A stretch of DNA of 64,000 bases from Eledone cirrhosa (taxonomy: Eukaryota), in contig OZ024749.1 in the NCBI GenBank assembly GCA_964016885.1, forward strand, positions 23,498,001 through 23,562,000, written 5' to 3'. Both the position numbers and the translations under genes were made by a program. Position 1 is the first letter of the stretch; every line of letters begins with the position of its first letter. Shown one piece after another: positions 1,393-55,270 of the stretch. Below the pieces are notes generated by a model, which searched no databases, had not been told where the DNA came from, and worked only from the letters and a program-made list of their open reading frames with translations.

Positions 1393-1426
1393 AAATAAAT
1401 GGAAACTATATTTATAAAACCATATT

Positions 1427-1624: not shown

Positions 1625-1655
<31 letters not shown>

Positions 1656-6227: not shown

Positions 6228-6287
<60 letters not shown>

Positions 6288-8314: not shown

Positions 8315-11300
8315 ATGCCTCCCAAACGACGAGCAATTGGTTAATCTACACCTCAAGCAAGGAAAAAATATGCATTACGAGCTTCAGAAACAGACGAGCA
8401 ACGGAAAGCAAGATTGGAAACGAATCGACTACGCAATGCTGAAGCCCGTTCATCTGAAACAGACGAGCAACGGGAAGCAAGATTGGAAACCGTTCGAGTA
8501 AGAACTGCTCAAGCCCGTTCATCTGAAACAGACGAGCAACGGGAAGCAAGATTGGAAACCGTTCGAGTAAGAACTACTCAAGCCCGTTCATCTGAAACAG
8601 ACGAGCAACGGGAAGCAAGATGGCAAACCGTTCGAGTAAGAACTGTCAAGCCCGTTCATCTGAAACAGACGAGCAACGGGAAGCAAGATTGCAAACCGTT
8701 CGAGTAAGAACTGTCAAGCCCGTTCATCTGAAACAGACGAGCAACGGGAAGCAAGATTGGAAACCGTTCGAGTAAGAACTACTCAAGCCCGTTCATCTGA
8801 AACAGACGAGCAACGGGAAGCAAGATGGCAAACCGTTCGAGTAAGAACTGCTCAAGCCCGTTCATCTGAAACAGACGAGCAACGGGAAGCAAGATTGCAA
8901 ACCGTTCGAGTAAGAACTGTCAAGCCCGTTCATCTGAAACAGACGAGCAACGGGAAGCAAGATTGGAAACCGTTCGAGTAAGAACTACTCAAGCCCGTTC
9001 ATCTGAAACAGACGAGCAACGGGAAGCAAGATGGCAAACCGTTCGAGTAAGAACTGCTCAAGCCCGTTCATCTGAAACAGACGAGCAACGGGAAGCAAGA
9101 TTGCAAGCCGTTCGAGTAAGAACTGTCAAGCCCGTTCATCTGAAACAGACGAGCAACGGGAAGCAAGAGTGGAAACGAATCGACTACGCAATGCTCTCAC
9201 CAGAAGAATACTGCACGCTGATTTAAATCTTGGTGCATTTCATTACGATTCAAATTATGATTACAGTCTTCATCCAAGTGTGATTATTGGAAAAATGGAT
9301 AAATTATGCGGGTATTGTGGTGCCCTCAAATTAAAAAATGAAACACCAGGAATGTGCTGCTCGGGTGGAAAACTGAAATTGCCAGAATTATATCCACCGC
9401 CTGAACCATTATCAACGTTAGTATCAGGTGACACAAGCGAATCTAAACATTTCTTGGCAAACATACGCAAGTACAAATCATGTTTCCAAATGACATCGTT
9501 CGGTGCAACAAATATCGTGCGCGAGAATTACATGCCAACATTCAAAGTGCAAGGGCAAATTTATCATCGTGCTGGATCACTACTACCACTGCCGGACGCA
9601 GATCACAAATTTCTTCAAATTTCTTTCATGGGAAACACTGATGACCAAATAGATCAACGTTGCAAATTCAATACGGGAACTAAACGAGAAATTGTTACTG
9701 CATTACAAACTTTATTCAATCAACACAACAAATTAATTCGATTGTTCAGAGCTGCCCTTGAACAAATGCCAAGTGATGACTAGACAATTGTAGTTAGAGC
9801 AGAAAAAACACCTGTTGGCCAACATCAAAGACAGTACAATGCACCAACAATTGATGAAGTGCCAATCGTTATTGTAGGTGAAGAATTTAACTCGCGCGAT
9901 ATAATTCTTCACCGCAGAAATGGTGATGTTCAGCGAGTCTCAGAAACGCATCGGTCATACGATGGTTTGCAATATCCAATTTTATTTTGGCAAGGAGAAG
10001 ATGGATATCATTTCAACATCAAACTGAGAAATCCACAAACAGATGAGGAAACGAATAAGAAAGCCAGTACCATGAATTATTATTCATATAGATTAATGAT
10101 TCGTGAGAACGGTGAAAATCATATTTTGAAATGTCGACAATTGTTCCATCCATACATTGTCGATATGTATGCAAAAATCGAAACCGAACGACTCCTCTAC
10201 ATTCGATTGAATCAAACCAAGCTACGTTCAGAAGATTACATTCATTTACGTGATGCCATTGTTAATGATGGCAATATGAATCCTAATGAATTGGGGAAAA
10301 TGGTCATACTGCTGGCTACATTTACAGGGAGCCCACGGCACATGCATGAATACGCACAAGATGCAATGACATATGTTCGCGCATATGGCCGTCCAGATCT
10401 TTTTATTACATTCACATGCAATCCTACGTGGGATGAAATTAAAGAACTTTTGTTACCTGGTCAATCGTCTTCGGATCGTCATGATATTACAGCGCGTGTG
10501 CTCAAACAAAAATTGAAATTTTTAACGGATTTAATTGTCAAGCATCATGTTTTTGGAGAGACAAGCTGTTGGATGTTTTTCATTGAATGGCAAAAAATAG
10601 GATTGCCGCATGCCCACATTTTGATTTGGTTAATTGAAAAAGTCACACCAGATCAAATTGATCAAATAATCTCAGCAGAAATACCAGATGTCGACGTTGA
10701 TCCAGACTTATTTGAATTCGTCAGTAAAAACTTGATTCATGGTCCATGTGGCTTACTCAACAACAATTCACCATGCATGTCTGATGGGAAATGCACGAAA
10801 CAATACCCAAGAGACTTAGTTGCCGAGACTATCACTGGCAATGACGGATATCCACTCTATCGTGAGACGAGCAACTGAAGATGGCGGCAAATCCATCACT
10901 TTAAAAGTACGAAACAATTATGTTGAAGTCGATAATCGTTGGGTTGTACCATATTCACCGTTACTCTCAAAGACGTTCAAAGCACACATCAATGTCGAGT
11001 ATTGCGATTCGGTGAAAGCGATCAAGTACATTTGCAAATATATCAACAAAGGAAGCGATATGGCAGTTTTTGGAGTATGCAATGCAAATTCATCTATCGA
11101 TGAAATCGACCAATACCAACTGTGACGCTACATTAGTAGTAATGAAGCAGTGTGGCGCATTTTATCATTTCCAATCCATTATCGACATCCAACAGTTGTT
11201 CATTTGGCGGTGCACCTTGAAAATGGACAGCGCGTATACTTCACATCTGAAAATATACGTGCAAGGGCATTGACACCACCGCCAACAACGTTAACTGCGT

Positions 11301-13333
11301 TTTTCTCATTATGCAGTGAAGATGTGTTTGCAAAGACACTACTTTATTCTGAAGTGCCAACATATTACAGATGGAATACATCAACGAAAAAGTTTAAACG
11401 TCGCAAACAGGGTAAAGTAGTTGAAGGACATCCCAATTTATATTCGACCGACGCGTTAGGCCATGTGTACACAGTTCACCCAAATAATGCAGAATGCTTT
11501 TACTTGCGATTATTGTTAATCAACGTACGTGGACCGACACCATTCCAAGAATTGAGAACAGTAAACGGTCAAGTATGTGCCACTTATCGTGAAGCTTGCC
11601 AAAAATTAAATCTTCTTGAAAATGATGGACATTGGGGCACTTCACTCGCTGATGCATCGAATACTGCTCGACCACAGCAAATACGCACGTTATTCGCAAT
11701 ATTGACAACGTGCTTCCCATCAAATCCAAAAGATCTTTGGGAAAAATACAAAGACTACACGAGTGAAGACATCCTACATCGTTTGCGTGCAACAAATCAA
11801 AATCTGAATATTCAATTCACACCAATCGTTTATAATGAAGCATTGGTTTCGATTGAGGTCATATGTTTAGCAATCGCTAACAAAACACTGGTACAATTGG
11901 GAATGCCTGCGCCGAATCGATCTGTAAATCACATTTTCGATCGAGATTTGTAACGAGAAACAAACTTTGATGTCGCCGAATTGGGTACATTTGTTCAAAC
12001 GAATCTTCTGAAATTGGTACCAGAACAACGCATAGTATATGACAAAATTATGCAGGCAATTACAAATCAAAGCGGCGGATTGTATTTTATAGATGCGCCC
12101 GGTGGTACAGGCAAAACGTTTCTCATTTCACTTATTTTGGCAACTATACGATCACAAAATAATATTGCAGTGGCAATCGCATCATCTGGAATTGCGGCAA
12201 CTCTTTTGGATGGTGGCCTAACTGCACATTCAGCACTGAAATTGCCATTGAATATGCAAATCACTGAGACACCAACATGCAATATCACCAAAAATTCTGG
12301 TATAAGTAAAGTACTCCATCCAGGTAAAATCATTATATGGGACGAATGTACTATAGCGCAAAAAAATCATTGGAAGCGCTTAATAACACACTAAAAGATT
12401 TTATTGTCTGGTGATTTTCGACAAACTCTACCAGTTATACTGCGATCAATACCCGCTGATGAGCTTAATGCATGTCTCAAATCATCAGTTTTATGGCGAC
12501 ACGTACAGAAATTAACTCTAAAAACCAATTTGCGTGTACAACTACAAAATGATGCATCCGCTGAACGTTTCACAAAACAATTGCTGGATATTGGGAATGG
12601 GAAAAAGTAATCGATGAATCCACAAAATGTATGACATTGCCAGCAAACTTCTGTAGAATCACGGCAACCAGAGACGAACTGATTCACAAAGTTTTCCCAA
12701 ATATCGCGCAGCATTACAAAAATCATCAGTGGCTCAATGCACGTGCTATATTAGCAGCCAAAAACAACAATGTCAATGCCATTAATTTCAGCATTCAAAA
12801 CAAAATACCAGGCGAAGCGACAACGTATAAGTCCATCGATACTGTAATGAATCAAGACGAAATTATCAATTATCCAACTGAATTCTTGAATTCACTTGAT
12901 TTACCAGGCATACCACCGCACATTTTAACATTGAAAATTGGCGAGCCTATCATCCTTCTCCGAAACATCAATCCACCACAACTTTGCAACGGTACCAGGC
13001 TTTCAGTGAAAAAGATGATGAACAATATCATCGAAGCTACAATTTTAAATGGAAAATTAAAGATGTACTGTTGCACGCATCCCAATGATTCCGACAGATA
13101 CGCCATTCGAATTCAAACGTTTGCAGTTTCCGGTGTGACTCGCCTTTGCAATGACAATCAACAAAGCACAAGGACAATGGCTACAAGTGTGTGGACTAAA
13201 TTTAGAAAATCCATGCTTCTCACATGGACAGCTGTATGTGGCTTGCTCACGCGTCGGTAAACCTTCTGATTTATTCGTGTACGCACCAGAAGGAAAACAA
13301 AAAAACATTGTGTATCCAAAAGAACTTCAGTAA
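8315..13333 (+). pseudogene. Helitron Rep/helicase (HUH endonuclease + PIF1-like SF1 helicase), with stops and frameshifts
   Basis: PDLFITFTCNP, EWQKIGLPHAHILIW (HUH), KYICKYINKG, DAPGGTGKT (Walker A), IIWDE, GDFRQTLPV, MTINKAQGQ, FSHGQLYVACSRV; Zn motif CGYC...MCC. Confidence 0.95.
8444..9175 (+). repeat. 11 units of a 69/68-bp coding tandem repeat (ARSSETDEQREARLETVRVRTAQ) in the RepHel N-terminus
   Basis: Unit starts at 8444, 8513, 8582, 8650, 8718, 8787, 8856, 8924, 8993, 9062, 9130. Confidence 0.95.
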
Positions 13334-13521: not shown

Positions 13522-13567
<46 letters not shown>

Positions 13568-13597
13568 AGATCAAAAGATGGTTAAAGGAGTTCCATA

Positions 13598-13668
13598 TAT
13601 TTTATTATGCGCATTTCAAAAACAAACATCATCAAGCAATAATATTTGTGTTTTCATCAGATAAAACA
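13598..13668 (-). ncRNA. Type I hammerhead ribozyme (second PLE)
   Basis: tgttttat-CTGATGA-aaacacaaatattatt..gatgatgtttgttttt-GAAA-tgcgca-TA-ataaaata; palindromic TGCGCA stem III. Confidence 0.82.
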
Positions 13669-14688
13669 AGAGAACATGATATGAAGGCTAAAAAACACTT
13701 GTGGATAGTGCAGTTTTAAATCAACATATGAAAAGTGGTTTTAGATTGATGTGTGATATTGGGAAAAATATTTTATTTAGAGAGGGGGGGGTGGAAAGGA
13801 TGAAAAGGGAAGGAGATGAGAGGGAGAGATGGGTGATAGAGAGAAAGAGATAGTTTTTATAACTGAGAGGAGATATATTTTTTACATGGAGAGGTTGAAA
13901 ACCGTTGGAAGATACTGTATAAATTAAAAATTTTGAAAATTAACGAAGGGAGGATATGTGCGAGGAAAAAATATTTTATTAGGGAGGGGGGGGTGAAAAA
14001 AAGGGGGAGGAGATGAGAGTGAAGGTGGAGAGGGAGAGATGGGTGATAGAGAGAAAGAGATAGTTTTTATAACTGAGAAAAAGATATATTGTTTTAATAT
14101 AGAGAGGTTGGGAACCGTTGGAAGATAATGTATAAATTAAAGGAATTTGAAAATTAACGAAGGGAAATTATGTATGAAGATAGAGAGAAAAAAATAATAA
14201 TTGTGGGTGAATATTCTAACGTCAAAAGAAGAAATGTATGTATTGTGGCAATTTCAAAATTAGTGAAGAGAAAAATTGTTAAGGTTTGTGTGTAGAAGGA
14301 TTTGAGAAAAATAATGTGAAGTTAAAGTTTGTATATTGATTGAATTGATAGTATGTGCGAATAAAGAGTTAATATGTATTAATAATGAGTTCGTTGATGG
14401 GGAGAAAAAAAAATAAAATAAAATAAAATAAAATAATAATAAATTAAGGATGAAATTGAGATTAAAAAGATTTATGATAGAGAGAAAAAATAATAATGAT
14501 TGCGGATGAATATTCAAATGTGAAAAACAAATGTTATGATTTTACGAGAAGATAGAATGAGGGTAATGAGTAAACGAGTATTATAGAGTGTATAATGCCC
14601 TTTAAAGTAAGGTAGATGGGTATATTTTAAAGAGGTGTATGTATATGTGCCTTTGAGAAAAGATTCTAAATTGATAAAGAATTGAATA

Positions 14689-15690
14689 TTAACTGTATAC
14701 TTTGTGAAAAGTTCTATGGAATTTATGCAGGCAGATAGAAAACAAATCTGAGCGTCTATTTATTATAGAATCTAGGTTAGAGATAATGGTAAATTTTTCA
14801 TTTAGGCAGAGATTACAGATTTTAGATAGAGAGCTGTTCAAGTATGAGGATGCAGAAGAAATCTTCTTCCAAAAGATGGTATATTTAATGTTTTTGTCTT
14901 TTAAGGACCATATGAGTTCTGAGAGAGCAGTGTTAGTTCTTTTAAGTTTGTATTTGAAAGATGAATGATGATTATAGAGACGAGCTTTAAAAGAGGTGGA
15001 AGTGGAGCCAAAATAGGTGAAGGAATTGGTGCTAGTTATAATTTTACATTCATAAATTAAGTTTTTATCGAGGCAATGGTTGTTGAGAGGACATTTATTT
15101 TTAATGCGGCAGTTGCAATTAGAGAGATTATTAATGAGTGAACTAGTGTTATCTATAGAAGGAATTGGATTGGAGAAGTTGTTTGCGATAGGAATAATAG
15201 GAATAATAGTTTCTTGATTTAGAGTTGGATTATGAACATTTAGCGAAGTTGTGTTTGACGTTGTATTTGGGTTTACAGAAGTTAGCCTAGGGTTTACAAT
15301 GACGTCGGGAGTACTATTACTGTTATTATGAAATTCAATATTGGAAGGAAGAGATTTAGTATTTAATATTTTGTTGTTGTGTTTAGAGATGATCTTGGAA
15401 ATATTGGAGGATGTAGAATACGAAAATTTGATGGTGTGTTTGTTAAATATGTTACTATAGATATGTGAGGGAGGGAAGCATTTATTTAAGGCACTAAAAC
15501 ATAATTTAGGAATATTGTTATTAATAGAGATGGAGAAAGGAGCATTATACCAGATTATGTTTTTGTATCTAGGTCTTTTATTAAAATTATTGGAATGGTC
15601 ATGATTAATTATTCTACCGTAAGTTTTTCTAGAATTTGTTTGTTTATTATATTTGATTTTATCTGGATAACCGGCTTTAAAAAGTGCGTT
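14689..15690 (-). pseudogene. PLE linker + GIY-YIG endonuclease fragment
   Basis: KNIIWYNAPFS, NKHTIKFSYS, CNCRIKNKCPLNNHC, NLIY...YFGSTSTSFKARLYNH, CNLC...CLH. Confidence 0.88.
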
Positions 15691-16528
15691 ATTATAGTAA
15701 TTATAGTAATTATAGTAATTATAGTAATTATAAATCTTTTTAATCTCAATTTCATCCTTAATTTATTATTATTTATTTTTTATTTTTTTTTTTTCTCCCC
15801 ATCAACGAACTCATTATTAATACATATTAACTCTTTATTCGCACATACTATCAATTCAATCAATATACAAACTTTAACTCACATTATTTTTCTCAAATCC
15901 TTCTACACACAAACCTTAACAATTTTTCTCTTCGCTAATTTTGAAATTGCCACAATACATACATTTCTTCTTTTAACGTTAGAATATTCACCCACAATTA
16001 TTATTTTTTTCTCTCTATCTTCATACATAATTTCCTTTCGTTAATTTTCAAATTCCTTTAATTTATACATTATCTTCCAACGGTTCCCAACCTCTCTATA
16101 TTAAAACAATATATCTTTTTCTCAGTTATAAAAACTATCTCTTTCTCTCTATCACCCATCTCTCCCTCTCCACCTTCACTCTCATCTCCTCCCCCTTTTT
16201 TTCACCCCCCCCCCCTAATAAAATATTTTTTCCTCGCACATATCCTCCCTTCGTTAATTCTCAAAATTTTTAATTTATACAGTATCTTCCAACGGTTTTC
16301 AACCTCTCTATGTAAAAAATATATCTCCTCTCAGTTATAAAAACTATCTCTTTCTCTCTATCACCCATCTCTCCCTCTCATCTCCTTCCCTTTTCATCCT
16401 TTCCACCACCCCCTCTCTAAATAAAATATTTTTCCCAATATCACACATCAATCTAAAACCACTTTTCATATGTTGATTTAAAACTGCACTATCCACAAGT
16501 GTTTTTTAGCCTTCATATCATGTTCTCC

Positions 16529-16599
16529 TGTTTTATCTGATGAAAACACAAATATTATTGCTTGATGATGTTTGTTTTTGAAATGCGCATAATAAAATA
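16529..16599 (+). ncRNA. Type I hammerhead ribozyme (inverted arm of second PLE)
   Basis: Reverse-complement copy of 13598-13668. Confidence 0.82.
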
Positions 16600-16813
16600 T
16601 ATGGAACTCCTTTAACCATCTTTTGATCTTATATTATGCATACTCCAGTCCCACAAACTGTAGAGTGCTTCTTATCCGATATCTGCATTGCTTTATTGTA
16701 CTACAATAAAACTCACCTCCAGTCCCCGCTAGCTGTTCCATCTACCGAATTATCATTATTTTTATATGAGTCCCCAGTGTCCGCGCATTGCCTGGAGACT
16801 TAGCTGAGAATAG

Positions 16814-16895
16814 ACTCCCTGATGACGCAATGAATTCTCGACGGTTATATTACGTAACTGTCTATATCCCATTGCAGAAACTAATTAGTTGGAGT
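16814..16895 (+). ncRNA. Type I hammerhead, family A
   Basis: actcc-CTGATGA-cgcaatg...cattgca-GAAA-ctaattag-TT-ggagt. Confidence 0.82.
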
Positions 16896-17357
16896 GAACA
16901 TTTTAGTAAGTAAGTTAATTTTTTTAATTTTTTTAAAATTTTCTTTTTTCACGTCTTTTATATTATTGTTCTGCATCCTCCTGCATTGAACCACCTAGGT
17001 ACTATGACATAACGTATGTATTTGCTAGCATTAGCGTACATCTGTACGCATATGTTAGTAGATATACTAAATTTTCTATATTTATCTCCAAATTATTTAT
17101 TTGTTGAGCAAACCTGCCAAAACCACTACTAACTTATTGGTGTGGTAGTAGGCTTCTGTCATCTTACCATCCCACTCCTTCCGACTAGCCTCAGCGTCAC
17201 GTGATTGATTCTTTAGAATCCGCCATTTGACCAGAGACAGCGAGCTTTTCAGTGCATGGAATCCAGTCCCCGCTAGCTATTCCATCTACCGAATTATTAT
17301 TATTTTTATATGAGTCCCCAGTGTCCGCGCATTGCCTGGAGACTTAGCTGAGAATAG

Positions 17358-17439
17358 ACTCCCTGATGACGCAATGAATTCTCGACGGTTATATTACGTA
17401 ACTGTCTATATCCCATTGCAGAAACTAATTAGTTGGAGT
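17358..17439 (+). ncRNA. Type I hammerhead, family A (second monomer)
   Basis: Same motif 544 bp downstream of 16814. Confidence 0.82.
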
Positions 17440-17618
17440 GAACATTTTAGTAAGTAAGTTAATTTTTAAAAAATTTTAAAAAAATTTTCTTATTTTACGT
17501 ATTTTATATTATTGTTCTGCATCCTCTTGCATTGAACCACCTAGGTACTATGACATAACTTATGTATTTGCTAGCATTAGCGTACATCTGTACGCATATG
17601 TTAGTAGATATACTAAAT

Positions 17619-17656
<38 letters not shown>

Positions 17657-18644: not shown

Positions 18645-21600
18645 GACATCCTCTCTAGTGCTGGTGGCACAAATAAAAGCACCCAGTCCATGCTGTAAAG
18701 TGGCGCTGGTGTTAGGAAGGGCATCCAACCAGTGTATCCACACCAAAACGCTTATCAGCACAGCAACAAATAGGAACACAACAACATATGAAGACGTCGC
18801 ATCTCAGAGTTGCAACACTTAATGTTGGCACTCTCAGAGGTAGATCAGCTGAAATAGCGGAGATGCTGGAGAGAAGGCAGGTGGATGTGTGCTGCATGCA
18901 AGAGGTGAGATGGAGAGGTGCCCCTGCGAGACTAGTCGTAGGCAAACGTCTTAGCTCTAAGCTATTCTGGTTAGGTAAGGATGATGGGTTAGGGGGAGTA
19001 GACATTTTCCTGGTTGAGAAATGGATCAATAAGACAATAGAGGTAGTTCGAGTCAGTAATCGAATAATTAAGCTTAGATTAGTTGTAGGCAGGAGACTAC
19101 TGACAATCATCTCGGCCTATGCTCCTCAAGCAGGCCTAGGCAAAGATGAGAAAGACTGCTTTTACGAGCAACTTTTACAAACAACCGCAATGACAGAGGA
19201 CGGAGACATCGTTATGCTAGCAGGACACTTCAATGGTCATGTTGGACAACTCCAGGATGGTTACACTGGGGTACATGGTGGGCACGGTTACGGCTCAAGA
19301 AATGAAGAAGGAGTGAGACTTCTTGAATTTTGTGATGCAGGTACATTGACTATTTGCAACACAAACTTCCAGAAACCTGCCAATCACCTAATAACCTACA
19401 AATCTGGTGAGCACATAAGCCAGATTGACTTCTTACTAGTTAGGCAGCGGGACAGGCAGATAGTGTCTAATACCAAGGCATACCCTGGGGAAGAATGTAC
19501 CCCACAGCATAGGTTAGTTGTTAGTGATATCTCAGTAAGCAAGAGATGGAATGAGACATATAGGAAGGTATGGAGAATAAAGGTCTGGAAGCTAAAAGAC
19601 CTTTCACTAAAATACAAATTTAGGAAAGCCCTTCAAGATGTATATGACGAACAAGAAGACGATTTAGAGACGTATGACAGATAATAACTGGAATTTCTTA
19701 CGTGACAACTTGCTGCAGGCTACTGATGAAACTTGTGGCTGGAGCAGAGCTCCAACCAGACAGAGAGTAACCTGGTGGTGGAACAGCACAGTAGATAAGG
19801 CCATTAGAGACAAAGGACTAACATGGAAGGCTTGGAAAAAGGGTGGGAGTAGGGATGAATATACAGCCACTAGGAGAGAAGCTAGACGCCAGGTGTACTT
19901 AGCACGCAGGGAGGCGGAGAGTAGGAGGTTTGCCAATGTTCTGCGACGGGAAGATCAGAGGCGTGCGGTGTTCCACATTGCAAGGCGGTGTATCAATGCA
20001 AATCAGGATGTTGTTGGAGATAAATGTGTCCGGGATGATGCCGGTGTCACGAATGATCAGAAAAAGGAGGCCTGGAAATGTCATTATGAGAGACTGATGA
20101 ATGTGGAGAACGAATTTGAGAGAGAGAAATTACCCTTAGTAGATCCGACATAGGGACCAGCTATTGAGATTGACGAATATAGGGTCCAAGAGGCGATTAG
20201 GGAAATGAAAAATGGTACGGCTGCTGGACCATCGGGAATAGTTGCTGAGATACTGAAGGCATCAGGGTACGTAGGCACTAAACTGGTTGCACGCATCATC
20301 AATCAGGCTATATATGGTGGTGCCATACCCAAAGACTGGTGCAGCAGTATTCTCATAAATTGCTACAAAGGTAAAGGGGATGCTCTGGAGAGGAGCAATT
20401 ATAGGGGTATACAACTGATAGATCAGGTTATGAAAGTGGCAGAAAGGATATTAGCACAACTAATTAGAGAAAGGGTCAAACTAGATGAGATGCATTTTGG
20501 TTTTGTGCCTGGGAAGAGTAAAACAGATGCCCTCTTCTTGGTGAGACAATTGCAAGAGAGGTTCTTAGAGAAAAATAAGCCACTATACTTAGATTTTGTT
20601 GACCTAGAGAAGGCCTTTGATAGGGTAACCCGATCAGTCATCTGGTGGTCCCTAAGGAAGCTAGGTGTTGAGGAATGGCTTGTGAGGACAGTGCAAACTT
20701 TGTACAGAGGTACTCTCAGTAAAATCAGGGTAGGAATGGAGTTTAGTGAGGAATTCCAGATACAAGTAGGAGTACATCAGGGTTCGGTCCTCAGCCCGCT
20801 CTTGTTCATTATAGTCTTCCAAGCCATAACAGAGGAGTTTAAGATTGACTGCCCATGGGAACTTCTCTATGCTGACGATCTGGTTCTTATAGCAGAATCA
20901 GTAGAGGAGCTAGAGAATAAATTCTGCCTATGGAAACAGCAGTTGGAAGCAAGAGGACTGAGAGTGAACCTAGCTAAGACAAAAGTGTTGATGAGTAGAA
21001 AAGAGGACAAAACCCTGGTTCCGACAGGGAAATGGCCATGTTCGATATGCAGAAAAGGAACTGGCATAAATTCTATAAAATGCACACAATGCAGATCCTG
21101 GGTACACAAGAGATGTAGCGGGATAGCAGGCAAACTAACAGGTAGGGAGAAATATGTATGCAGTAGATGTACAGGGAAATTAGACAGTAGAAGTCGCATT
21201 GATAGACACAGTTTTCAAATGCAGGAGGGCGCTATAGAAATGGCGGATAGCTTCCGGTACCTAGGAGATCAGATTAGCATGGGAGGAGGGTGTTCAGAGG
21301 CCATAGTATCTAGAATAAGGACGGGTTGGAAGAAGTTTAGGGAGCTGCTTCCTCTGTTGACGAAGAAGTGTTTCTCCCTGCTTACGAAAGGCCGTTTGTA
21401 TGATGCCTGTGTGAGGAGCGCGATGCTGCATGGTAGTGAGACATGGGCAGCAACTGCAGAGGATATGCGACGGCTGGAGAGAAATGAGGCAAGCATGCTC
21501 CGTTGGATGTGCAGTGTAAATGTGCGTGAACGACCCAGCATAAATGTGTTGAGAGAGAAACTGTGTCTGAGAGGGATAGAATGTAGTGTACAGGAGAGGA

Positions 21601-21860
21601 GACTGATGTGGTATGGACATGTGATGCGCATGGAGGATCACCGATGGGTGAAGAAGTGCGAGGAAATGCCAGTCGAATGAAGACGTGGTAGAGGTATACC
21701 ACGAAAAACATGGGCGGAGGTGCTGAGAACAGACCTCAAATCATTGAAGCTCACGGTGGAGATGCTGAAGGCCCGTGACGAGTGGAGAGATGGTATGCTG
21801 AATAAGTCCCGTCCCACCCTTGCAAGCAGGGAAAAGCGGACGTAAAATGATGATGATGAT
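18645..21860 (+). mobile_element. RTE-clade LINE, near full length
   Basis: APE + RT coding region; 5' gttaggaagggcatcc motif; 3' end ...gaaaagcggacgtaaaa(TGA)n tail. Confidence 0.9.
18788..21845 (+). pseudogene. RTE ORF: AP endonuclease + RT + PHD-like Cys cluster; frameshift ~19680, stops at 20151 and 21678
   Basis: ATLNVGTL, CMQEVRW, ISAYAPQ, HFNGHVG, SQIDFLL, QHRLV; FVDLEKAFDRV, GVHQGSVLSPLLF, LLYADDLVL; CSIC...CTQCRSWVHKRC...CSRC. Confidence 0.93.
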
Positions 21861-39692: not shown

Positions 39693-39723
<31 letters not shown>

Positions 39724-39850
39724 GAATGTATATATAATGTATTTTGCAATACACTTTATGCTTAATTAAAAGCATTTTGAAGACCGTATGCTATTGTTTT
39801 AGAGTAGTGACCAACTCACTTACTTTAATCTAGGCAAACAAGGGGAGATA

Positions 39851-39895
39851 AGCCGACAAGGCCTTGTTTCGCATTTATTGATGCTTATCAAGGCT
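39851..39895 (-). ncRNA. Hammerhead (U3-A8), family D inverted copy
   Basis: agcc-TTGATAA-gcat(caataa)atgc-GAAA-caaggccttg-TC-ggct; perfectly palindromic stem III. Confidence 0.8.
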
Positions 39896-40223
39896 AACTA
39901 CTCCCTCCTGTCTACTGAGATCACTGATGTTATATTCTTATAGAATTCTAGTAAATAATCAGGAACTGATTATACAGAGCCGTTGCCGGTCACTACTCTA
40001 AACCAATAGCATACGGTCTTCAAAATGCTTTTAATTAAGCATAAAGTGTATTGCAAAATACATTATATATACATTCATATATATATTGCTATTTCAGAGC
40101 TTCAATTCTAATTTTTTATTTCTGCCTGACTGGCAACCGCTCTGTATAATCAGTTCCTGATTATTTACTAGAATTCTATAAGAATATAACATCAGTGATC
40201 TCAGTAGACAGGAGGGAGTAGTT

Positions 40224-40268
40224 AGCCTTGATAAGCATCAATAAATGCGAAACAATGCCTTGTCGGCT
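40224..40268 (+). ncRNA. Hammerhead (U3-A8), family D monomer 1
   Basis: agcc-TTGATAA-gcat(caataa)atgc-GAAA-caa(tgcc)ttg-TC-ggct. Confidence 0.8.
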
Positions 40269-40541
40269 TCTCTCCCCTTGTTTGTGAGATTAAAGTAAGT
40301 GAGTTTGTCACTACTCTAAAACAATAGCATACGGTCTTCAAAATGCTTTTAATTAAGCATAAAGTGTATTGCAAAATACATTATATATACATTCATATAT
40401 ATATTGCTATTTCAGAGCTTCAATTCTAATTTTTTATTTCTGCCTGACTGGCAACCGCTCTGTATAATCAGTTCCTGATTATTTACTAGAATTCTATAAG
40501 AATATAACATTAGTGATCTCAGTAGACAGGAGGGAGTAGTT

Positions 40542-40586
40542 AGCCTTGATAAGCATCAATAAATGCGAAACAATGCCTTGTCGGCT
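40542..40586 (+). ncRNA. Hammerhead (U3-A8), family D monomer 2
   Basis: Same motif +318 bp. Confidence 0.8.
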
Positions 40587-40859
40587 TCTCTCCCCTTGTT
40601 TGTGAGATTAAAGTAAGTGAGTTTGTCACTACTCTAAAACAATAGCATACGGTCTTCAAAATGCTTTTAATTAAGCATAAAGTGTATTGCAAAATACATT
40701 ATATATACATTCATATATATATTGCTATTTCAGAGCTTCAATTCTAATTTTTTATTTCTGCCTGACTGGCAACCGCTCTGTATAATCAGTTCCTGATTAT
40801 TTACTAGAATTCTATAAGAATATAACATCAGTGATCTCAGTAGACAGGAGGGAGTAGTT

Positions 40860-40904
40860 AGCCTTGATAAGCATCAATAAATGCGAAACAATGCCTTGTC
40901 GGCT
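40860..40904 (+). ncRNA. Hammerhead (U3-A8), family D monomer 3
   Basis: Same motif +636 bp. Confidence 0.8.
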
Positions 40905-41418
40905 TCTCTCCCCTTGTTTGTGAGATTAAAGTAAGTGAGTTTGTCACTACTCTAAAACAATAGCATACGGTCTTCAAAATGCTTTTAATTAAGCATAAAG
41001 TGTATTGCAAAATACATTATATATACATTCATATATATATTGCTATTTCAGAACTCCAATTCTAATATATATATATATATGTATATACATATATACGTAT
41101 ATATATATGTGGATATATACATGCATATACGTATATATGTGGTGTGTCTATGTGCATTTGTGTATGTGTATATATATATATACAAATGTTTGCGTACCTA
41201 CGGATGCAACATAATTCGGTGCCTCTTCAGTGTTGTATCCTAAAGTCACTACCAATTTCGGGTTGATGAGAAAGTGTCTGTCCATTTGGCCTATATACTC
41301 ATGATCCCATCTCAATACCCTCACTGCTACTTCCGTATCGTTCTTGATGTCTCCCCTCCTGTTTACAGCAATGACATCCAGCGATCATTATGTTTTGGTA
41401 AGAAAATACGCTTTAGAA

Positions 41419-41618: not shown

Positions 41619-42503
41619 CTTTAGAAACTATGCTGCATGCAACAAGCCTCCTCTCGTTCCTGCGACAGTCCTTTACAACCCACTGATGCTTTCGTGATTT
41701 CTTCCTCACCCCCTCATACCAAGCCACAGTTAGCTCCACTGGAATGAGCTGTCTTGTTACCCCGTAAACAAACATAATATCTTGTCACAACCTGGACTAT
41801 GTAATATGGGATAGAGTTTTCAGCCGTATTATCAATGTGTAAAAGGCAAACTCTCTATCATCAATTCAGTATACTTTTAACCTTTGCCTGTGGTCATAAA
41901 TCCGTGATAATGAAGGACAGAATATAACCCCAAATACAAGTGTCTGAAATGGTGTATTTAGTGTAATGTTACGCAATAACATGTTTAGCCTGGAGTAGAG
42001 GCAATCGTGTCCACGTAGAGTCGCTACAACTCCAAATTGAGAAATCATAGCTCCGGTATTTGAGGTTTGAATGTTTAATTTTGGTTTGATTGTCAAGAAT
42101 CGCTTGACAGATTTTACAAGCAAAACCACCCGGTAGGAAGTCCATGGGTAGACACCGAGCAAGACGGTTAGATGACATCCATGGGTTCGGTTGCTCTCGC
42201 TTGGGCTTTCAGCCGGATCAATTAGGTTGACTTGGTTTTGGCAGAACCCGATTGAAGGATAACTTAAGGACTCTTCCCCCACGACCCTCACAGGAATAAG
42301 TTTGGGTAGCAGAAGGAGGAGGGGAATGGAAGAAGAAGAAGAAGAAGAAGAAGAAGAAGAAGAAGAAGAAGAAGAAGAAGAAGAAGAAGAAGAAGAAGAA
42401 GAAGAAGAAGAAGAAGAAAAAAAAAATTGTCAACTCTCATCAACTATTATCCTCCTGTTCCAATCAACCCCGCCTGTATGTATATATATATATGTATATA
42501 TAT

Positions 42504-42611
42504 AAACGGAGAAAATGAAACGAAATTTCATTTCCCACTCTTAGTACGGCTGTTACTTAAATATAATTATGTATACATACATACATATATGTATACAAAC
42601 GTACAGTAGCA

Positions 42612-42683
<72 letters not shown>

Positions 42684-43379
42684 CTTGCACGCATATATAT
42701 GTACGTATGGATTCACCGAACATTTATTATAATGCTCGGTGTGTTTGTAAACAAACATTCCGAATTAAGCCGCACAGTGTCTAGCAACCATCGTTGCTCA
42801 TTTGTTCAACACTGACAAAGGAACGCTGTACTAATTTCAAGCTTATTAGCTATCGTCAGCACCGTATACCTTCCTACCAGATGGTTGAAAGTCTGAAAGT
42901 ATTTACTTTCCTCGTGCATATTAACGGCTGACCGGCCTAATTTGCATATCGAGTGAGTTAATCGGCCGGGGTTAGGGTTAGGGTTAGGATTAGGGAAAAC
43001 AATAAACGGAAAAAATGAAACGAAATTTCCATTCTCACTCATAGTAAGGCTGTTACTTAAATATAAGTATGTATACGTACATACATATATGTATACAGAA
43101 GTACAGTAGTATGTATGTATATATATATATATATATATTTATAGCGAGGGAAAAGTGGTAAGGAACCAGGTGGACCATAACGCACCAAAGTACTCAATAC
43201 TTAGGGTAGTAGAGTGGGTAATAGGAGTAAGTAAGACCCCGACGGCTGAGCTCAAGCCGTTTCGACGGCTAATTCTGTAAACGAACATCCCGAATTAAGC
43301 CGTACAGTGTCTAGCAACCATCGTTGCTCATTTGTTCAACATTGACAAAGGAACGCTATACTAGATTCAAGCTTATTAG

Positions 43380-43418
<39 letters not shown>

Positions 43419-44000
43419 AACAAGTAAGACTCCGACAGCTGAGCTCAAGCCGTTTCTACGGCTAATTCTGTAAACGAACATCCCGAATTAAGCCGTACAG
43501 TGTCTAGCAACCATCGTTGCTCATTTGTTCAATATTGACAAAGGAACGCTATACTAGATTCAAGCTTATTAGCTATCGTCAGCAACGTATACCTTCCTGC
43601 CAGATGGTTGAACGACTGAAAGTATTTACTTTCCTTATGCACATTATCGGCTGAGCAGCCTAATTTGCATATCGAGTGAGTTAATCGGCTGGGGTAGTAT
43701 AAACGGAAAAAATGAAACGAAATTTCATTTCTCACTCGATATGCAAATTAGGCTGCTCAGCAGTTAATATGCATAAGGAAAGTAAATACTTTCAGACGTT
43801 CAACCATCTGGCAGGAAGGTATACGTTGCTGACGATAGCTAATAAGCTTGAAACTAGTACATCGTTCCTTTGTCTGTGTTGAACAAATGAGCAACGATGG
43901 TTGCTAAACCCTGTACGGCTTAATTCGGAATGTTTGTTTACAAACACACCGAGCATTATAATAAATGTTCGGTGAATCCATACGTACATATATATATATA
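42504..44000. mobile_element. Retrozyme-like family B (~500-bp monomer), tandem and inverted copies, interrupted by family C fragments
   Basis: Period 500 (42504/43004); inversion at ~43735; HHRs at 42823-42865(-), 43546-43588(-, GAAT variant), 43823-43865(+). Confidence 0.8.
43823..43865 (+). ncRNA. Minimal type I hammerhead, family B
   Basis: acgttg-CTGACGA-tagct(aata)agctt-GAAA-ctag-TA-catcgt. Confidence 0.72.
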
Positions 44001-44054
44001 TATGTGCATGTATGTAATATATATATATATATATATATTGAGAGAGAGAGAGAG

Positions 44055-46280
44055 AGAATTAATACATCTACCAACATATGTGTACAGATGTACACTCATG
44101 CTAGCAAATATATAAGTTATGTCTTAGTACCGATGTGGTTCTATGCAGGGGGGGTGCAGAACAATTATATGAAAGACGTAAAATAAGAGAATTTTAAAAA
44201 TTTAAAATTAAAAATCAACATACTAAAATTTTCACTCCAACTAATTAGTTTCTGTAATGGGATAAATATAGTTACATAATATTATTATAGAGAATTCATT
44301 ACGTCATCAGGGAGTCTATTCTCAGCTAAGTTCCCAGGCAATGCGCGGCCACTAGGAACCCATATAGAAATAATGATTCAGTGGATGAAATAAAGCTAGC
44401 GAGGACTAAATTCCGGAGCACTGAAAACATTTTTCACTGCCTCTGGTCAGTGGCAGATTCTAAAGAATCAATCACGTGACACCGAGGTTAATCAGTTAGG
44501 AGCGGGGTGGTATTATGACAAGAGCCTACTACTACCATGAAACAGCAGTAAAGTTTGGCAAGTTTTGCTCAACAAATAATTTGGAGATAAATATAGAGAA
44601 TTAGTACATCTACCAACATATGTGTACAGATGTACACTCATGCTAGCAAATATATAAGTTATGTCTTAGTACCTATGTGGTTCTAAGCAGGGCGTGCAGA
44701 ACAATTATATGAAAGACGTAAAATAAGAGAATTTTAAAAATTAAAAATCAACTTACTTACTAAAATGTTCACTCCAACTAATTAGTTTCTGTAATGGGAT
44801 AAATATAGTTACATAATATTACTATAGAGAATTCATTACGTCATCAGGGAGTCTATTCTTAGCTAAGTTCCCAGGCAATGCGCGGCCACTAGGAACCCAT
44901 ATAAAAATAATGATTCAGTGGATGAAATAAAGCTAGCGAGGACTAAATTCCGGAGCACTGAAAAAATGTTTCACTGCCTCTGGTCAGTGGCAGATTCTAA
45001 AGAATCAATCACGTGACACCGAGGTTAATCAGTTAGGAGTCGGGTGGTATTATGACAAGAGCCTACTACTACCATGAAACAGCAGTAAATTTTGGCAAGT
45101 TTTGCTCAACAAATAATTTGGAGATAATGAGTTGGAGTGGAAATATTAGTAAGTAAGTTGATTTTTAATTTTTAAAATGCTCTTATTTTACGTTTTCCAT
45201 ATAATTGTTCTGCACCCCCCTGCATAGAACCACATCAGTACTAAGACTAACTTATATATTTGCTAGCATGAGTGTACATCTGTACACATATGTTGGTAGA
45301 TGTACTAATTCTCTATATTTATCTCCAAATTATTTGTTGAGCAAAACTTGCCAACATTTAGTGCTGTTTCATGGTAGTAGTAGGCTCTTGTCATAATACC
45401 ACCCCGCTCCTAACTGATTAACCTCGGTGTCACGTGATTGATTCTTTAGAATGTACCACTGACCAGAGGGAGTGAAGAATGTTTTCAGTGCTCCGGAATT
45501 TAGTCCTCGCTAGCTTTATTTCATCCACTGAATCATTATTTTTATATGGGTTCCTAGTGTCCGCGCATTGCCTGGGAACTTAGCTGAAAATAGACTCCCT
45601 GACGACGTAATGAATTCTCCCTAGTTATATTATGTAACTATATTTATCCCATTACAGAAACTAATTAGTTGGAGTGAAAATTTTAGTATGTTGACTTTTA
45701 ATTTTTAATTTTTAAAATTCTCTTATTTTACGTCTTTCATATAATTGTTCTGCACCCCCTGCATAGAACCACATCGGTACTAAGACATAACTTATATATT
45801 TGCTAGCATGAGTGTACATCTGTACACATATGTTGGTAGATGTACTAATTCTTTATATTTATCTCCAAATTATTTGTTGAGCAAAACTTGCCAACATTTA
45901 CTGCTGTTCCATGGTAGTAGTAGTAGGCTCTTGTCATAATACCACCCCGCTCCTAACTGATTAACCTCGCTGTCACGTGATTGATTCTTTAGAATCTGCC
46001 ACTGACCAGATGTATTGAAAAAAAATTTCAGTGCTCCGGAATTTAGTCATCGCTAGCTTTATTTCATCCACTGAATCATTATTTTAATATGGGTTCATAG
46101 TATCCGCGCATTACCTGGGAACTTAGCTGAGAATAGACTCCTTGATGACGTAATGAATTCTCTATAGTAATATTATGTAGCTATATTTATCCCATTACAG
46201 AAACTAATTAGTTGGAGTGAAAATTTTAGAAAGTAAGTTAATTTTTAATTTTTAAAATTCTCTTATTTTACGTCTTTCAT
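44055..46280. mobile_element. Retrozyme-like family A array: two minus-strand monomers then ~2.1 plus-strand monomers (537-543 bp)
   Basis: HHRs at 44234-44315(-), 44771-44852(-), 45594-45675(+), 46137-46218(+, C3U); inversion at ~45128; homologous to 16719-17620. Confidence 0.87.
45594..45675 (+). ncRNA. Type I hammerhead, family A
   Basis: actcc-CTGACGA-cgtaatg...cattaca-GAAA-ctaattag-TT-ggagt. Confidence 0.82.
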
Positions 46281-46289
46281 ATATATATA

Positions 46290-46765
46290 TATATACATAC
46301 TACTGTACGTCTGTATACATATATGTATGTATGTATACATAATTATATTTAAGTAACAGCCGTATTAGGAGTGAGAAATGAAATTTCGTTTCATTTTTTC
46401 CGTTTATTGTTTTCGGTACCCCGGCCAATTAATTCACTCGATATGCAAATTAGGCTGCTCAGCCGTTAATATGCATACGGAATATAAATATTTTCAGACG
46501 TTCAACCATCTGGCAGGAATGTATACGTTGCTGACGATAGCTAATGAGCTTGAAACTAGTACAGCGTTCCTTTGTCAGTGTTGAACAAATGAACAACGAT
46601 GGTTGCTGGACCCTACGGCTTAATTCGGGATATTTGTTTACAAACACACAGGGCATTATAATAAATTTCGGTGAATCCATACGTACATATATATATGTAT
46701 GTATATATATATATACATACTACTGTACGTCTGTATACATAAATGTATGTACGTATACATACTTA
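46290..46765 (+). mobile_element. Continuation of family B monomer after the family A insertion
   Basis: Resumes the family B sequence interrupted at the (TA)n tract near 44000. Confidence 0.8.
46525..46567 (+). ncRNA. Minimal type I hammerhead, family B
   Basis: acgttg-CTGACGA-tagct(aatg)agctt-GAAA-ctag-TA-cagcgt; 6-bp stem I, palindromic CTAG stem III. Confidence 0.8.
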
Positions 46766-46871
46766 TATATATATATATATATATATATATACGTGTGTGT
46801 GTGCCTTTCTCTCTCTCTCTCTGTATATATATATATATATATATACGTGTACAGAAAGAGCAAGTTAGATT

Positions 46872-52294: not shown

Positions 52295-53060
52295 TTGTGA
52301 ATATGAACACTTTTGAATATGAACACTTTTGAATATATACAGTGTTGGATATATAGACTTTTAAATATATACACTTTTGGATATATACAGTGTTGGATAT
52401 ACATACTTTTAAATATATGCACTTTTGGATATATACAGTGATGGATATATAGACTTTTAAATATATACACTTTTGGATATATACAGTGTTGGATATACAA
52501 ACTTTTAAATATATACACTTTTGGATATATACAGTGATGGATATATAGACTTTTAAATATATACACTTTTGGATATATACAGTGTTGGATATATAGACTT
52601 TTAAATATATACACTTTTGAATATATACAGTGCTGGATATATAGACTTTTAAATATATACACTTTTGGATATATACAGTGTTGGATATATAGACTTTTAA
52701 ATATATACACTTTTGGATATATACAGTGTTGGATATATAGACTTTTAAATATATACACTTTTGGATATATACAGTGTTGGATATATAGACTTTTTAAATA
52801 TATACCCATTTGGATATATACAGTGTTGGATATATAGACTTTTGAATATATAGACTTTTGAATATAAACACTTTTGGATATAAACACTTTAGGATAGAAA
52901 TAATTTTGGATATATACACATTGGTATATAAACAATTTTGGATATAAACACTTCTGAATATAAACACTTGTATATAAACACTTTTGGATATAAACACCTT
53001 ACAATCTAAATACTTCGGAATATGAACATTTTTGGATATAAATACTTTTGGATATATACA
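52295..53060. repeat. Satellite: 48-bp unit made of three 16-bp subunits (acttttggatatatac-like)
   Basis: acttttggatatatacagtgttggatatatagacttttaaatatatac repeated; degenerates to 16-mers at the edges. Confidence 0.92.
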
Positions 53061-53139: not shown

Positions 53140-55270
53140 TAGCAAGAGTATGATATATATTAATTATTATGAATCATACAAACAAATAATTTAGTAAGAA
53201 TTATTACGTACAGGAGAATATGATTCATACTGATAATTTAGTAAGAATTATTATATAGAGAACAGTATGTGTCTTACTAGTAATGTTGTATGATATATTA
53301 TAGAGAGAAGAGTATGGATCTTGCTAATTAATATTCATGAATTATCATATAGTGAAGGGTGGGATACCATGCTTTGAAGCATAGAGTTACGACCGTTTGT
53401 GCTCTGAGTTCGAATCTCGCTGAGGTTAAGTTTGCTTTTCATCGTTACGTGGTCGATAAAATAGAGCACCAGTAATGCAGTGGGATAATTGCTGCCTTTG
53501 TGCCAAAAGTAAAAACATTTATATACAGAAGAATATGAGGCTTACAAACTATTATGTATGAATTATTATATAGAGTAGAGTATGTTTTTACTAACTAATA
53601 TGTATGAATTATGATATAGAGAAGAGTATGGACCGTAGTAATAATCTAGCATAAATTATGATATAGAGAAGAGTATGGATCGTAGCAATAATTTAGCATA
53701 AATTATGATATAGAGAATAGTATGGATCGTAGTAATAATTTAGCATGAATTATGATATAGAGAATAGTATGGATCGTAGTAATAATTTAGCATAAATTAT
53801 GATATAGAGAAGAGTATGGATCGTAGTAATAATTTAGCATAAATTATGATATAGAGAATAGTATGGATCGTAGTAATAATTTAGCATAAATTATGATATA
53901 GAGAATAGTATGGATCGTAGTAATAATTTAGCATAAATTATGATATAGAGAAGAGTATGGATCGTAGTAATAGTTTAGCATGAATTATGATATAGAGAAG
54001 AGTATGGATCGTAGTAATAGTTTAGCATAAATTATGATATAGAGAAGAGTATGGATCGTAGTAATAGTTTAGCATAAATTATGATATAGAGATGAGTATG
54101 GATCGTAGTAATAGTTTAGCATAAATTATGATATAGAGAAGAGTATGGATCGTAGTAATAGTTTAGCATAAACTATGATATAGAGAAGAGTATGGATCGT
54201 AGTAATAATTTAGCATAAATTATGATATAGAGAAGAGTATGGATCGTAGTAATAATTTAGCATAAATTATGATATAGAGAAGAGTATGGATCGTAGTAAT
54301 AATTTAGCATAAATTATGATATAGAGAAGAGTATGGATCGTAGTAATAATTTAGCATAAATTATGATATAGAGAAGAGTATGGATCGTAGAAATAATTTA
54401 GGATGAATTATGATATAGAGAAGAGTATTATCGTAGTAATAACTTAGGATGAATTATTATATAGAGAAGAGTATGGCTCGTAGTAATAATTTAGCATAAA
54501 TTATGATATAAAGAAGAGTATGGATCGTAGTAATAATTTAGCATAAATTATGATATAGAGAAGAGTATGGATCGTAGTAATAATTTAAGATGAATTATGA
54601 TATAGAGAAGAGTATGGATCGTAGTAATAATTTAGCATAAATTATGATATAGAGAAGAGTATGGATCGTAGTAATAATTTAGGATGAATTATTACATAGA
54701 GAAGAGTATGGATCGTAGTAATAATTTAGGATGAATTATTATATTGAGAAGAGTATGGATCGTAGTAATAATTTAGGATGAATTATTATATTGAGAAGAG
54801 TATGGATCGTAGTAATAATTTAGGATGAATTATTATATTGAGAAGAGTATGGGTCGTAGTAATAATTTAGGATGAATTATTATATTGAGAAGAGTATGGA
54901 TCGTAGTAATAATTTAGGATGAATTATTATATTGAGAAGAGTATGGGTCGTAGTAATAATTTAGCATGAATTATTATATTGAGAAGAGTATGGATCGTAG
55001 TAATAATTTAGGATGAATTATTATATTGAGAAGAGTATGGATCGTAGTAATAATTTAGGATGAATTATTATATTGAGAAGAGTATGGGTCGTAGTAATAA
55101 TTTAGGATGAATTATTATATTGAGAAGAGTATGGGTCGTAGTAATAATTTAGGATGAATTATGATATAGAGAAGAGTATGGGTTTTACTAATAATTTTGT
55201 AGGATTTATGTTATAGAGAAGTGTATGGATTGTAGTAATAGTTATGTATGAATTATTATTAATAGAAGAT
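53140..55270. repeat. 47-bp tandem satellite (tatagagaagagtatggatcgtagtaataatttagcataaattatga)
   Basis: Period 47 (e.g. 53709/53756); homogeneous core ~53600-55180 with degenerate flanks. Confidence 0.95.
53345..53520 (+). mobile_element. 5'-truncated SINE inserted in the satellite flank
   Basis: gagttcgaatctc B-box, gcttttcatcgttacgtggtcgataaaata core, tgtgccaaaagt tail. Confidence 0.75.

What the first reader, a model, noticed from the sequence alone, without database searches (positions are those of the whole stretch)
44055..46280. ~540-bp family A shows compensatory stem II evolution between two loci
The arrays at 16719-17620 and 44055-46280 are diverged homologues. Stem II is gCaatg/cattGc at 16.8 kb and gTaatg/cattAc at 44-46 kb, a C-G to U-A compensatory pair, while stem I (actcc/ggagt), the palindromic stem III (ctaattag) and the core stay fixed. 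This is sequence-level evidence that the fold is selected. The monomer is longer than the roughly 150-400 nt I recall for metazoan retrozymes.
Basis: partly seen in the sequence, partly recalled or inferred. Interest (0 to 1): 0.75.

Follow-up and report, generated by a model that had tools for sequence, protein, structure and literature searches.

The report
Penelope-spread hammerhead retrozyme with predicted blocker
A 540-base non-coding repeat with a hammerhead (self-cutting RNA) motif occurs thousands of times in this animal genome; its ribozyme stem has kept its base pairing through repeated paired mutations, its insertions end in the pattern typical of Penelope-type jumping genes, whose enzyme likely copied it, and it is predicted to carry its own off-switch for the ribozyme.

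Summary
Observation confirmed; interpretation partly supported. Both loci belong to one ~541-nt non-coding family with a type I hammerhead motif: 7,103 exact cores genome-wide, 0 for the reversed control. The two-locus C-G/U-A swap alone is weak evidence (chance about 0.08). Family-wide it is strong: that pair is Watson-Crick in 100 of 100 cores, in three states, and 3 of 3 inherited stem II changes are compensated. The size is not unusual: cricket pDo500 repeats are 463-505 bp, and retrozyme consensuses reach 972 bp. 44055-46280 is two back-to-back arms. Ends fall at two fixed sites next to (TA)n, one of each type in 32 of 32 classifiable two-arm insertions: the Penelope 'tail' footprint, which this scan had noted for other families on other DNA of this genome. 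No ORF-bearing copy was found. Added here: a template-dependent (CT)n stutter at one end (38 of 48 versus 0 of 21), a predicted helix that blocks the cleavage site, and two fusions to an intact Hydra-clade Penelope family. Cleavage, expression and circles are untested.

The parts
43988..44057 (.). (TA)n, then (GA)9, which reads (CT)9 on the RNA strand, at the S2 end of the minus arm
   Evidence: (CT)n tails depend on the template
44056..45127 (-). Minus arm, about 2 units, outer end at site S2 (about +180 after the predicted cleavage site)
44214..44334 (-). Type I hammerhead domain, core start 44310, predicted cut between 44239 and 44238
44751..44871 (-). Type I hammerhead domain, core start 44847, predicted cut between 44776 and 44775
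45125..46281 (+). Plus arm, about 2.1 units, joined to the minus arm by 3 shared bases, outer end at site S1 (about +68) followed by (TA)n
45575..45695 (+). Hammerhead domain, core start 45599, predicted cut between 45670 and 45671
45741..45850 (+). 'Tail' between S1 and S2: a short hairpin and a long hairpin that has a covarying pair; likely the RT-recognition element (inferred)
45947..45963 (+). Predicted blocker (monomer about +283 to +298), complementary to the cleavage junction; other copies near 45404+, 44505- and 17172+
45972..45980 (+). Conserved E-box-like block (exact in 74 of 78 monomers); promoter role untested
46118..46238 (+). Hammerhead domain, core start 46142, carrying C3>U (likely inactive), predicted cut between 46213 and 46214
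16718..17622 (+). Single arm of 1.7 units, subfamily with the C-G pair, cores at 16819 and 17363; S2 end followed by (CT)n(AT)n; 5' end fused, with no TA run, to the tail of a Hydra-clade PLE through 3 shared bases
13560..16720 (.). Neighbouring 5'-truncated two-armed Hydra-clade PLE ('PLE-B'; EN frame 14689-15762 minus; its own hammerheads at 13660- and 16537+); candidate helper family

Best explanation
This is a non-coding, multi-thousand-copy ~540-nt repeat with a structurally conserved type I hammerhead motif (a metazoan non-LTR retrozyme), and it is likely copied into (TA)n sites by the reverse transcriptase and endonuclease of a Penelope-like element. Shown from sequence: the copy number, lack of an ORF, compensatory evolution, two fixed outer ends (S1 about +68, S2 about +180), one end of each type in two-arm insertions, arms that run through one or more ribozyme sites, and a (CT)n stutter that depends on the template. 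Inferred steps: (1) arrays are transcribed; (2) the hammerhead, probably acting as a dimer through its palindromic stem III, cuts multimers, and some monomers are ligated into circles; (3) a segment at +283 to +298 pairs over the cut site and keeps the RNA uncut; (4) the PLE protein binds the hairpins between S1 and S2, cuts both DNA strands at (TA)n, and primes one cDNA at S1 and the other at S2, sometimes stuttering on the CUCU template at S2; (5) each RT runs back through a circle or an uncut multimer; (6) the two cDNAs join by microhomology. The most likely helper is a Hydra-clade PLE such as PLE-B. Selection acts on the master RNA lineage during retroposition, not on each genomic copy.
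For: Copy number: 7,103 cores plus 192 of a stem I variant, 0 in both controls. Coding: longest ATG ORF 93 aa in 72 doubled monomers. Covariation. A structure taken from one sequence alone gathers 11 double compensations, against a null mean of 1.15 and a maximum of 6 in 3,000 shuffles. Ends: in 68 unbiased insertions, 101 of 112 arm ends are S1 (48) or S2 (53). Of 39 simple two-arm insertions, 32 have both ends classifiable and all 32 are S1+S2; in the best-hit sample it is 21 of 21. 23 of 27 single arms have a TA run at the 5' junction. PLE-B obeys the same rule in 4 of 4 complete two-arm loci. Published matches: a tail at one end only, inverted arms and (TA)n targets (PMC8557442), and two RT start sites bracketing the tail in vitro (PMC11167929). 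Read-through: 91 of 101 S1/S2 arms pass the first cut site and 31 pass a second. Stutter: (CT)3 or longer at 38 of 48 S2 ends with a CTCT template, 0 of 21 with a CTTT-type template, 3 of 16 with ATCT; 1 of 68 classifiable internal units shows CTCTCT. Common source for both arms: the 44-46-kb arms share variants absent elsewhere (5 of 5 units vs 0 of 55; 4 of 4 vs 0 of 34). TA-free fusions: with PLE-B (window 16718; L118) and with other hammerhead repeat families (L004, L105, L128). Helper intact: 8 of 8 fetched PLE-B copies have an 821-aa open frame with RWT, DKT and CxCx5C motifs.
Against: Cleavage, expression and circles are not shown. The core is atypical: an extra C after A9 (common in PLE hammerheads, PMC4209133) plus an extra A before G12, and a GUU triplet. 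In the preprint, 8 of 9 predicted Xenopus retrozymes did not cleave. 5' truncations are not clearly enriched at the cut site: 4 of 112 lie within -5 to +8, about 2.9 expected; 5 of 24 loci, counted by eye, lie within 2 nt. There is no A-to-G editing excess (13 vs 24 and 34 vs 77). The window's arms also hold arm-specific variants, and L014 joins arms from two subfamilies, so one circle is not always the template. Family A shares no sequence with 12 PLE-A and PLE-B loci beyond A/T tracts. None of 38 PLE-B loci chosen by protein match held family A. L029 abuts the endonuclease region of another PLE family. The window fusion could be a nested insertion with a deletion. The single-sequence structure also gathers 70 pair-breaking changes, so much of the predicted circle fold is wrong or free to vary. 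The blocker was found post hoc and is weak in some subfamilies.
Confidence: 0.8

Rival explanations
1. Linear template only: the PLE RT copies uncut read-through multimers, and circles play no part. The hammerhead fold is conserved as a slow, protein-assisted or RT-binding structure.
For: The Anolis PLE used unprocessed RNA, and ribozyme mutants did not affect insertion in vitro. There is no clear pile-up of 5' ends at the cut site. Arrays are short: median arm 518 nt, 4 of 112 at 1,100 nt or more. The blocker is predicted in the linear form as well.
Against: Variants are shared across units and arms of one insertion (89 of 512 testable vs 2.4% control; inflated by thinly sampled subfamilies). 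Covarying pairs occur in three other hairpins around the monomer. Circles were shown for coral, mussel and axolotl retrozymes.
Confidence: 0.35
2. The family is simply the pLTR of an autonomous PLE that was not sampled, and these are truncated copies.
For: The ends, tail, inversion and hammerhead type are all PLE features. Only about 120 of several thousand insertions were read.
Against: 41 of 112 unbiased arms are 620 nt or longer and 31 S1/S2 arms run past a second cut site, continuing in family sequence. No sense ORF lay upstream of 49 free 5' ends; the 2 protein hits were antisense. The element may still descend from a pLTR.
Confidence: 0.08
3. A DNA-level satellite or MITE: it spreads by recombination or foldback, and the covariation is a by-product of shared ancestry or of hairpin gene conversion.
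For: There are few independent events: 3-4 in stem II. Template switching in inverted repeats can change both sides of a stem at once (recalled).
Against: The two fixed ends, the strict S1+S2 pairing, the template-dependent (CT)n and the TA-free chimeras with other hammerhead RNAs need an RT. G-U-tolerated changes in the blocker (9 of 9) fit RNA pairing on the ribozyme strand.
Confidence: 0.04

Closest known systems
Metazoan non-LTR retrozymes (Cervera and de la Pena 2020, PMC7229834, parts 2-4 of 6 read; Li, Clavereau and Pollet 2026, 10.64898/2026.07.22.740005, parts 1-3 of 5 read; supplements of neither seen)
   Same: Non-coding tandem units with a type I hammerhead, GC under 50% (36%), thousands of copies, co-occurring PLEs. 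Length lies within the 51-972 bp of the preprint.
   Different: Longer than the ~170-400 nt invertebrate circles. Two-armed S1/S2 ends are not described in the parts read; the preprint favours local tandem expansion. PMC7229834 says most metazoan circles, apart from some mussel ones, are not predicted to block their ribozyme; here blocking is predicted in 29 of 35. RNA is not shown here.
pDo500 satellite of Dolichopoda cave crickets (PMC2837043, parts 1-2 of 5 read)
   Same: ~500-bp repeat with a hammerhead; stems conserved, with compensatory mutations, including in stem II.
   Different: pDo500 is described as tandem satellite DNA with cleavage shown in vitro; this family is dispersed in short, often inverted arrays with retroposition ends.
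Penelope-like elements: Hydra clade and Anolis Poseidon PAc (PMC8557442, passages and section 11; PMC11167929, parts 1-2 of 4; PMC4209133, parts 1-2 of 4; PMC3846280, passages)
   Same: Inverted arms, a tail at one end, two start sites, (TA)n targets, an extra nucleotide after A9, long helix II and palindromic helix III.
   Different: No ORF. The tail is about 110 nt rather than 30-40 nt. There is an extra A before G12 and a GUU triplet. No sequence homology to the local PLE families tested.
Plant LTR retrozymes and hammerhead viroids (as summarised in the Discussion of PMC7229834)
   Same: Ribozyme blocked by a complementary segment of the same RNA (predicted here).
   Different: Type I rather than type III hammerhead; no LTR structure; no evidence of RNA-to-RNA replication.

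Membership tests
Metazoan non-LTR retrozyme | Type I hammerhead motif in each tandem unit | tested here: met
   variant core (C and A flanking the G10.1-C11.1 pair; GUU)
Metazoan non-LTR retrozyme | Tandem units of a few hundred bases | tested here: met
   72 distinct monomers, 478-594 nt, median 541
Metazoan non-LTR retrozyme | Non-coding and not attached to an RT ORF | tested here: met
   longest ORF 93 aa; 0 of 49 free 5' flanks with a sense PLE ORF; a sample, not a census
Metazoan non-LTR retrozyme | Self-cleavage activity | not testable with these tools
   needs an in vitro assay; 5'-end pile-up inconclusive
Metazoan non-LTR retrozyme | Expressed as linear and circular monomer RNA | not testable with these tools
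   needs RNA data; see Tried and rejected
Type I hammerhead ribozyme | Stems I-III with covariation support | tested here: met
   stem II 99.1% paired with 2 covarying pairs; stem I 97.9% with none changed on both sides; stem III invariant, partly because of how copies were selected
Type I hammerhead ribozyme | Tertiary contact between loops 1 and 2 | tested here: inconclusive
   5-bp complement 86.3% paired, with no two-sided change; the same 5' bases can extend stem I instead
PLE-type insertion | Two fixed 3' ends, with a tail at one end of inverted arms | tested here: met
   32 of 32 and 21 of 21 classifiable pairs
PLE-type insertion | (TA)n target (Hydra and Naiad clades) | tested here: met
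   S1 and S2 ends are defined by an adjacent TA or CT run; independently, 23 of 27 single-arm 5' junctions have one; empty sites not seen
Autonomous PLE | RT plus GIY-YIG ORF | tested here: not met
Derivative of PLE-B or PLE-A pLTR | Sequence homology to the pLTR | tested here: not met
   only A/T-tract hits against 12 PLE loci; other PLE families of the genome not tested

The most novel reading that the evidence does not exclude
A long-lived animal circular RNA lineage that evolves under selection on its whole fold, switches its own hammerhead off with a built-in antisense segment as viroids do, and is written into the genome by a Hydra-clade Penelope RT that primes from both sides of the break and stutters on a short RNA template in a telomerase-like way, creating new (CT)n microsatellites.
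Probability: 0.3. Interest if true: 0.75.

Novelty: new variant of a known kind. Interest (0 to 1): 0.55.

Why it matters
How animal retrozymes move has been proposed (PLE help, circular template) but, in the papers read, not shown from insertion structure. This family supplies fixed RT start sites, a strict end-pairing rule and an intact candidate helper in the same window, so the question can go straight into the published in vitro PLE assay. Its ladder of subfamilies, up to 26% apart, is a natural mutagenesis series for a non-standard hammerhead core. The template-dependent (CT)n stutter bears on repeat addition by telomerase-related RTs and on how microsatellites arise.

Tried and rejected
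Rfam at gathering score: 0 hits. Pfam on 5 PLE fragments: nothing above cut-off. RNA runs: no RNA holder listed. Three runs of unrecorded kind hold the family as fragmented contigs and say nothing on expression. End classifier: the first two versions matched TA runs by mistake and gave false same-type pairs; only one search is used. Before counting, 17 loci were dropped as overlapping duplicates or the window's own. Cut-site enrichment: the best-hit sample gave 16 of 84 but is biased by the query start; the unbiased sample gave 4 of 112. RNA editing scars: not found. The alignment-derived consensus fold (11 double changes) was not used as proof, because the fold was chosen using covariation; one search replaces it. 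R-scape was not available; a branch-wise shuffle of inherited changes was used. L151 looked like a PLE fusion but is a TA-flanked nested insertion; its wider region was fetched and not analysed. Unusual length: rejected. Literature searches listed no paper on cephalopod retrozymes, on two-armed retrozyme ends or on PLE stutter; the library is incomplete and no supplements were read.

Full report
OBSERVATION. The stretches 16718-17622 and 44056-46281 are about 80% identical members of one repeat family. Each unit ends in a type I hammerhead motif: stem I, the CUGAUGA core, a 6-bp stem II carrying an internal loop and a further hairpin, GAAA, a palindromic stem III and a GUU triplet. The C-G versus U-A difference in stem II is as described. 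One of the six window cores has C3>U. The 44-46-kb locus is two back-to-back arms, not one array.

FAMILY. An exact core pattern matches 7,103 times in the 3.0-Gb genome and 0 times read backwards; a stem I variant adds 192. The first 100 matches, all on contig C1 and chosen without regard to stem II, fall in 68 insertions. 72 distinct full monomers measure 478-594 nt, median 541. GC is 36%, the longest ORF is 93 aa and the greatest divergence is 26%. The tree is ladder-like, as for a master lineage that keeps evolving. The host is probably a cephalopod; this comes from earlier scan notes and was not tested.

IS THE FOLD SELECTED? Two loci 16-19% apart give one compensated pair with a rough chance of 0.07-0.09, so they prove little. 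In the 100 cores, pair 2 is C-G 44, U-A 36 and A-U 20 with no mismatch. Pair 5 is U-A 50 and G-C 44 with 6 mismatches. Pairs 3 and 4 are invariant; pairs 1 and 6 have 2 and 3 mismatches. On a tree built without the ribozyme, pairs 2 and 5 each change twice on each side and twice jointly. On the 78-monomer tree, stem II has 3 inherited changes (clades of 3 or more), all double and compensated; the null mean is 0.05 and 0 of 20,000 shuffles reach 3. The extension hairpin has 5 double, 11 tolerated and 5 breaking changes. A fold predicted from one sequence gathers 11 double changes (null mean 1.15) but also 70 breaking ones. Covarying pairs also lie in hairpins at +146/157, +234/254 and +426/451. 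A 20-sequence count agrees, and slid controls pair 39-44% against 92%. Three window monomers folded as circles lie 3.1-5.6 SD below shuffles. This kind of result has precedent in cricket pDo500 (PMC2837043), which also removes the size argument, as does the 51-972 bp range in the 2026 preprint.

INSERTION ANATOMY. In the 68 unbiased insertions, 101 of 112 arm ends lie at S1 (about +68) or S2 (about +180), each next to a TA or CT run; 11 end elsewhere. There are 27 single arms, 39 simple back-to-back pairs and 2 complex loci. All 32 pairs with two classifiable ends are S1+S2, and so are 21 of 21 in the best-hit sample. The window locus is one of this kind. This matches the PLE tail present at one end only (PMC8557442; PMC3846280) and the two RT start sites mapped in vitro (PMC11167929). 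The coding PLE next door obeys the same rule with its own sites in 4 of 4 complete two-arm loci. 91 of 101 arms read through a cut site and 31 through two, so the template was a circle or an uncut multimer, not a cut linear monomer. The window's two arms share variants absent from other copies but also carry arm-specific ones. At S2, a (CT)3 or longer run occurs at 38 of 48 ends whose nearest monomers have CTCT there, 0 of 21 with a CTTT-type template (p = 2e-10) and 3 of 16 with ATCT; 85 of 89 S2 ends were testable. Internal units show CTCTCT in 1 of 68. The run therefore arises at the insertion end, most simply by repeated copying as RT starts (inferred).

HELPER. No free 5' end of 49 leads into a sense PLE ORF. 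PLE-B, whose truncated copy lies at 13560-16720, has intact 821-aa frames in 8 of 8 fetched copies, with the motifs that define the (TA)n-targeting Hydra clade. In the window and in L118, a PLE-B arm ending at its S1 and a family arm ending at S2 form one TA-free structure. Similar fusions join the family to two other hammerhead repeat families (L004, L105, L128) and perhaps to another PLE (L029). There is no homology to PLE-B, and 0 of 38 PLE-B loci held the family. A PLE helper is therefore likely; PLE-B specifically is a candidate only.

BLOCKER. A segment at +283 to +298 is complementary to the cleavage junction. It outcompetes stem I in 29 of 35 circular folds (39 tried, 4 not parsed; mean probability 0.66 vs 0.07). 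All 9 inherited changes in it keep the pairing; 5.3 were expected from the mutation spectrum (P = 0.006, post hoc). Its duplex beats at least 97% of shuffles in 7 of 11 monomers but not in the 16.8-kb type. Scrambling it raises stem I from 0.13 to 0.34, and removing it from a linear form gives 0.46 (14 monomers). Tertiary contacts and dimers are not modelled. PMC7229834 describes such blocking for plant retrozymes and viroids and says most metazoan circles lack it.

AGAINST AND UNTESTED. There is no RNA evidence. 5' ends are not clearly enriched at the cut site and there is no editing excess. The core carries an unusual extra A and a GUU triplet, which from recall lower activity, and 8 of 9 predicted frog retrozymes failed to cleave.

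PRIOR SCAN NOTES. Eight listed notes (of 349 that fit the look-up) describe Penelope-type, mostly two-armed retrozyme families of 310-478 nt elsewhere in this genome. I had reached the S1/S2 reading before that look-up (note). One note prompted the editing test. None matched this sequence or the blocker wording. They are leads, not support.

VERDICT. A real feature: a new retrozyme family with solid covariation and a PLE insertion footprint, plus a predicted self-blocking helix and a template-dependent stutter. Interest 0.55.

Noticed in passing
window 13560-16720: Young Hydra-clade PLE (PLE-B) with its own hammerhead and two fixed ends (about +46 and +133); intact 821-aa frames elsewhere in the genome.
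   Followed up: yes
window 1380-6854: Second, probably Hydra-type PLE family (RT 4342-5175 minus, broken by stops; hammerheads at 1483- and 6092-). 140 close copies were scored genome-wide, some with open frames over 740 aa.
   Followed up: partly
window 42502-43960 and 46279-46790: Another hammerhead repeat family (cores 42859-, 43829+, 46531+; period about 466 in L044). The 44-46-kb insertion is nested inside one of its copies.
   Followed up: partly
window 29727, 35457, 58444, 62307, 63167(-): Further hammerhead-like motifs of other repeat families; 58444 lies beside a GIY-YIG-like frame.
   Followed up: no
window 8345-13260: Degenerate Helitron-like Rep/helicase frames (label recalled from motifs, not tested) with a 69-bp coding tandem repeat at 8387-9176.
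   Followed up: no
window 18716-21680: Broken LINE-like element with endonuclease and RT frames (RTE-like; label recalled).
   Followed up: no
L029:998-1480: A family arm starts at the predicted cut site and abuts, with no TA run, the antisense endonuclease region of another PLE family: a possible third composite insertion.
   Followed up: no
L014, L079, L089, L097, L007: Single loci that join units from subfamilies about 17-33% apart, suggesting two RNAs per event or nested insertions.
   Followed up: partly
window 39714-41066, 52307-53060, 53558-55274: A 318-bp tandem array with an inverted copy, and 16/48-bp and 47-bp minisatellites.
   Followed up: no
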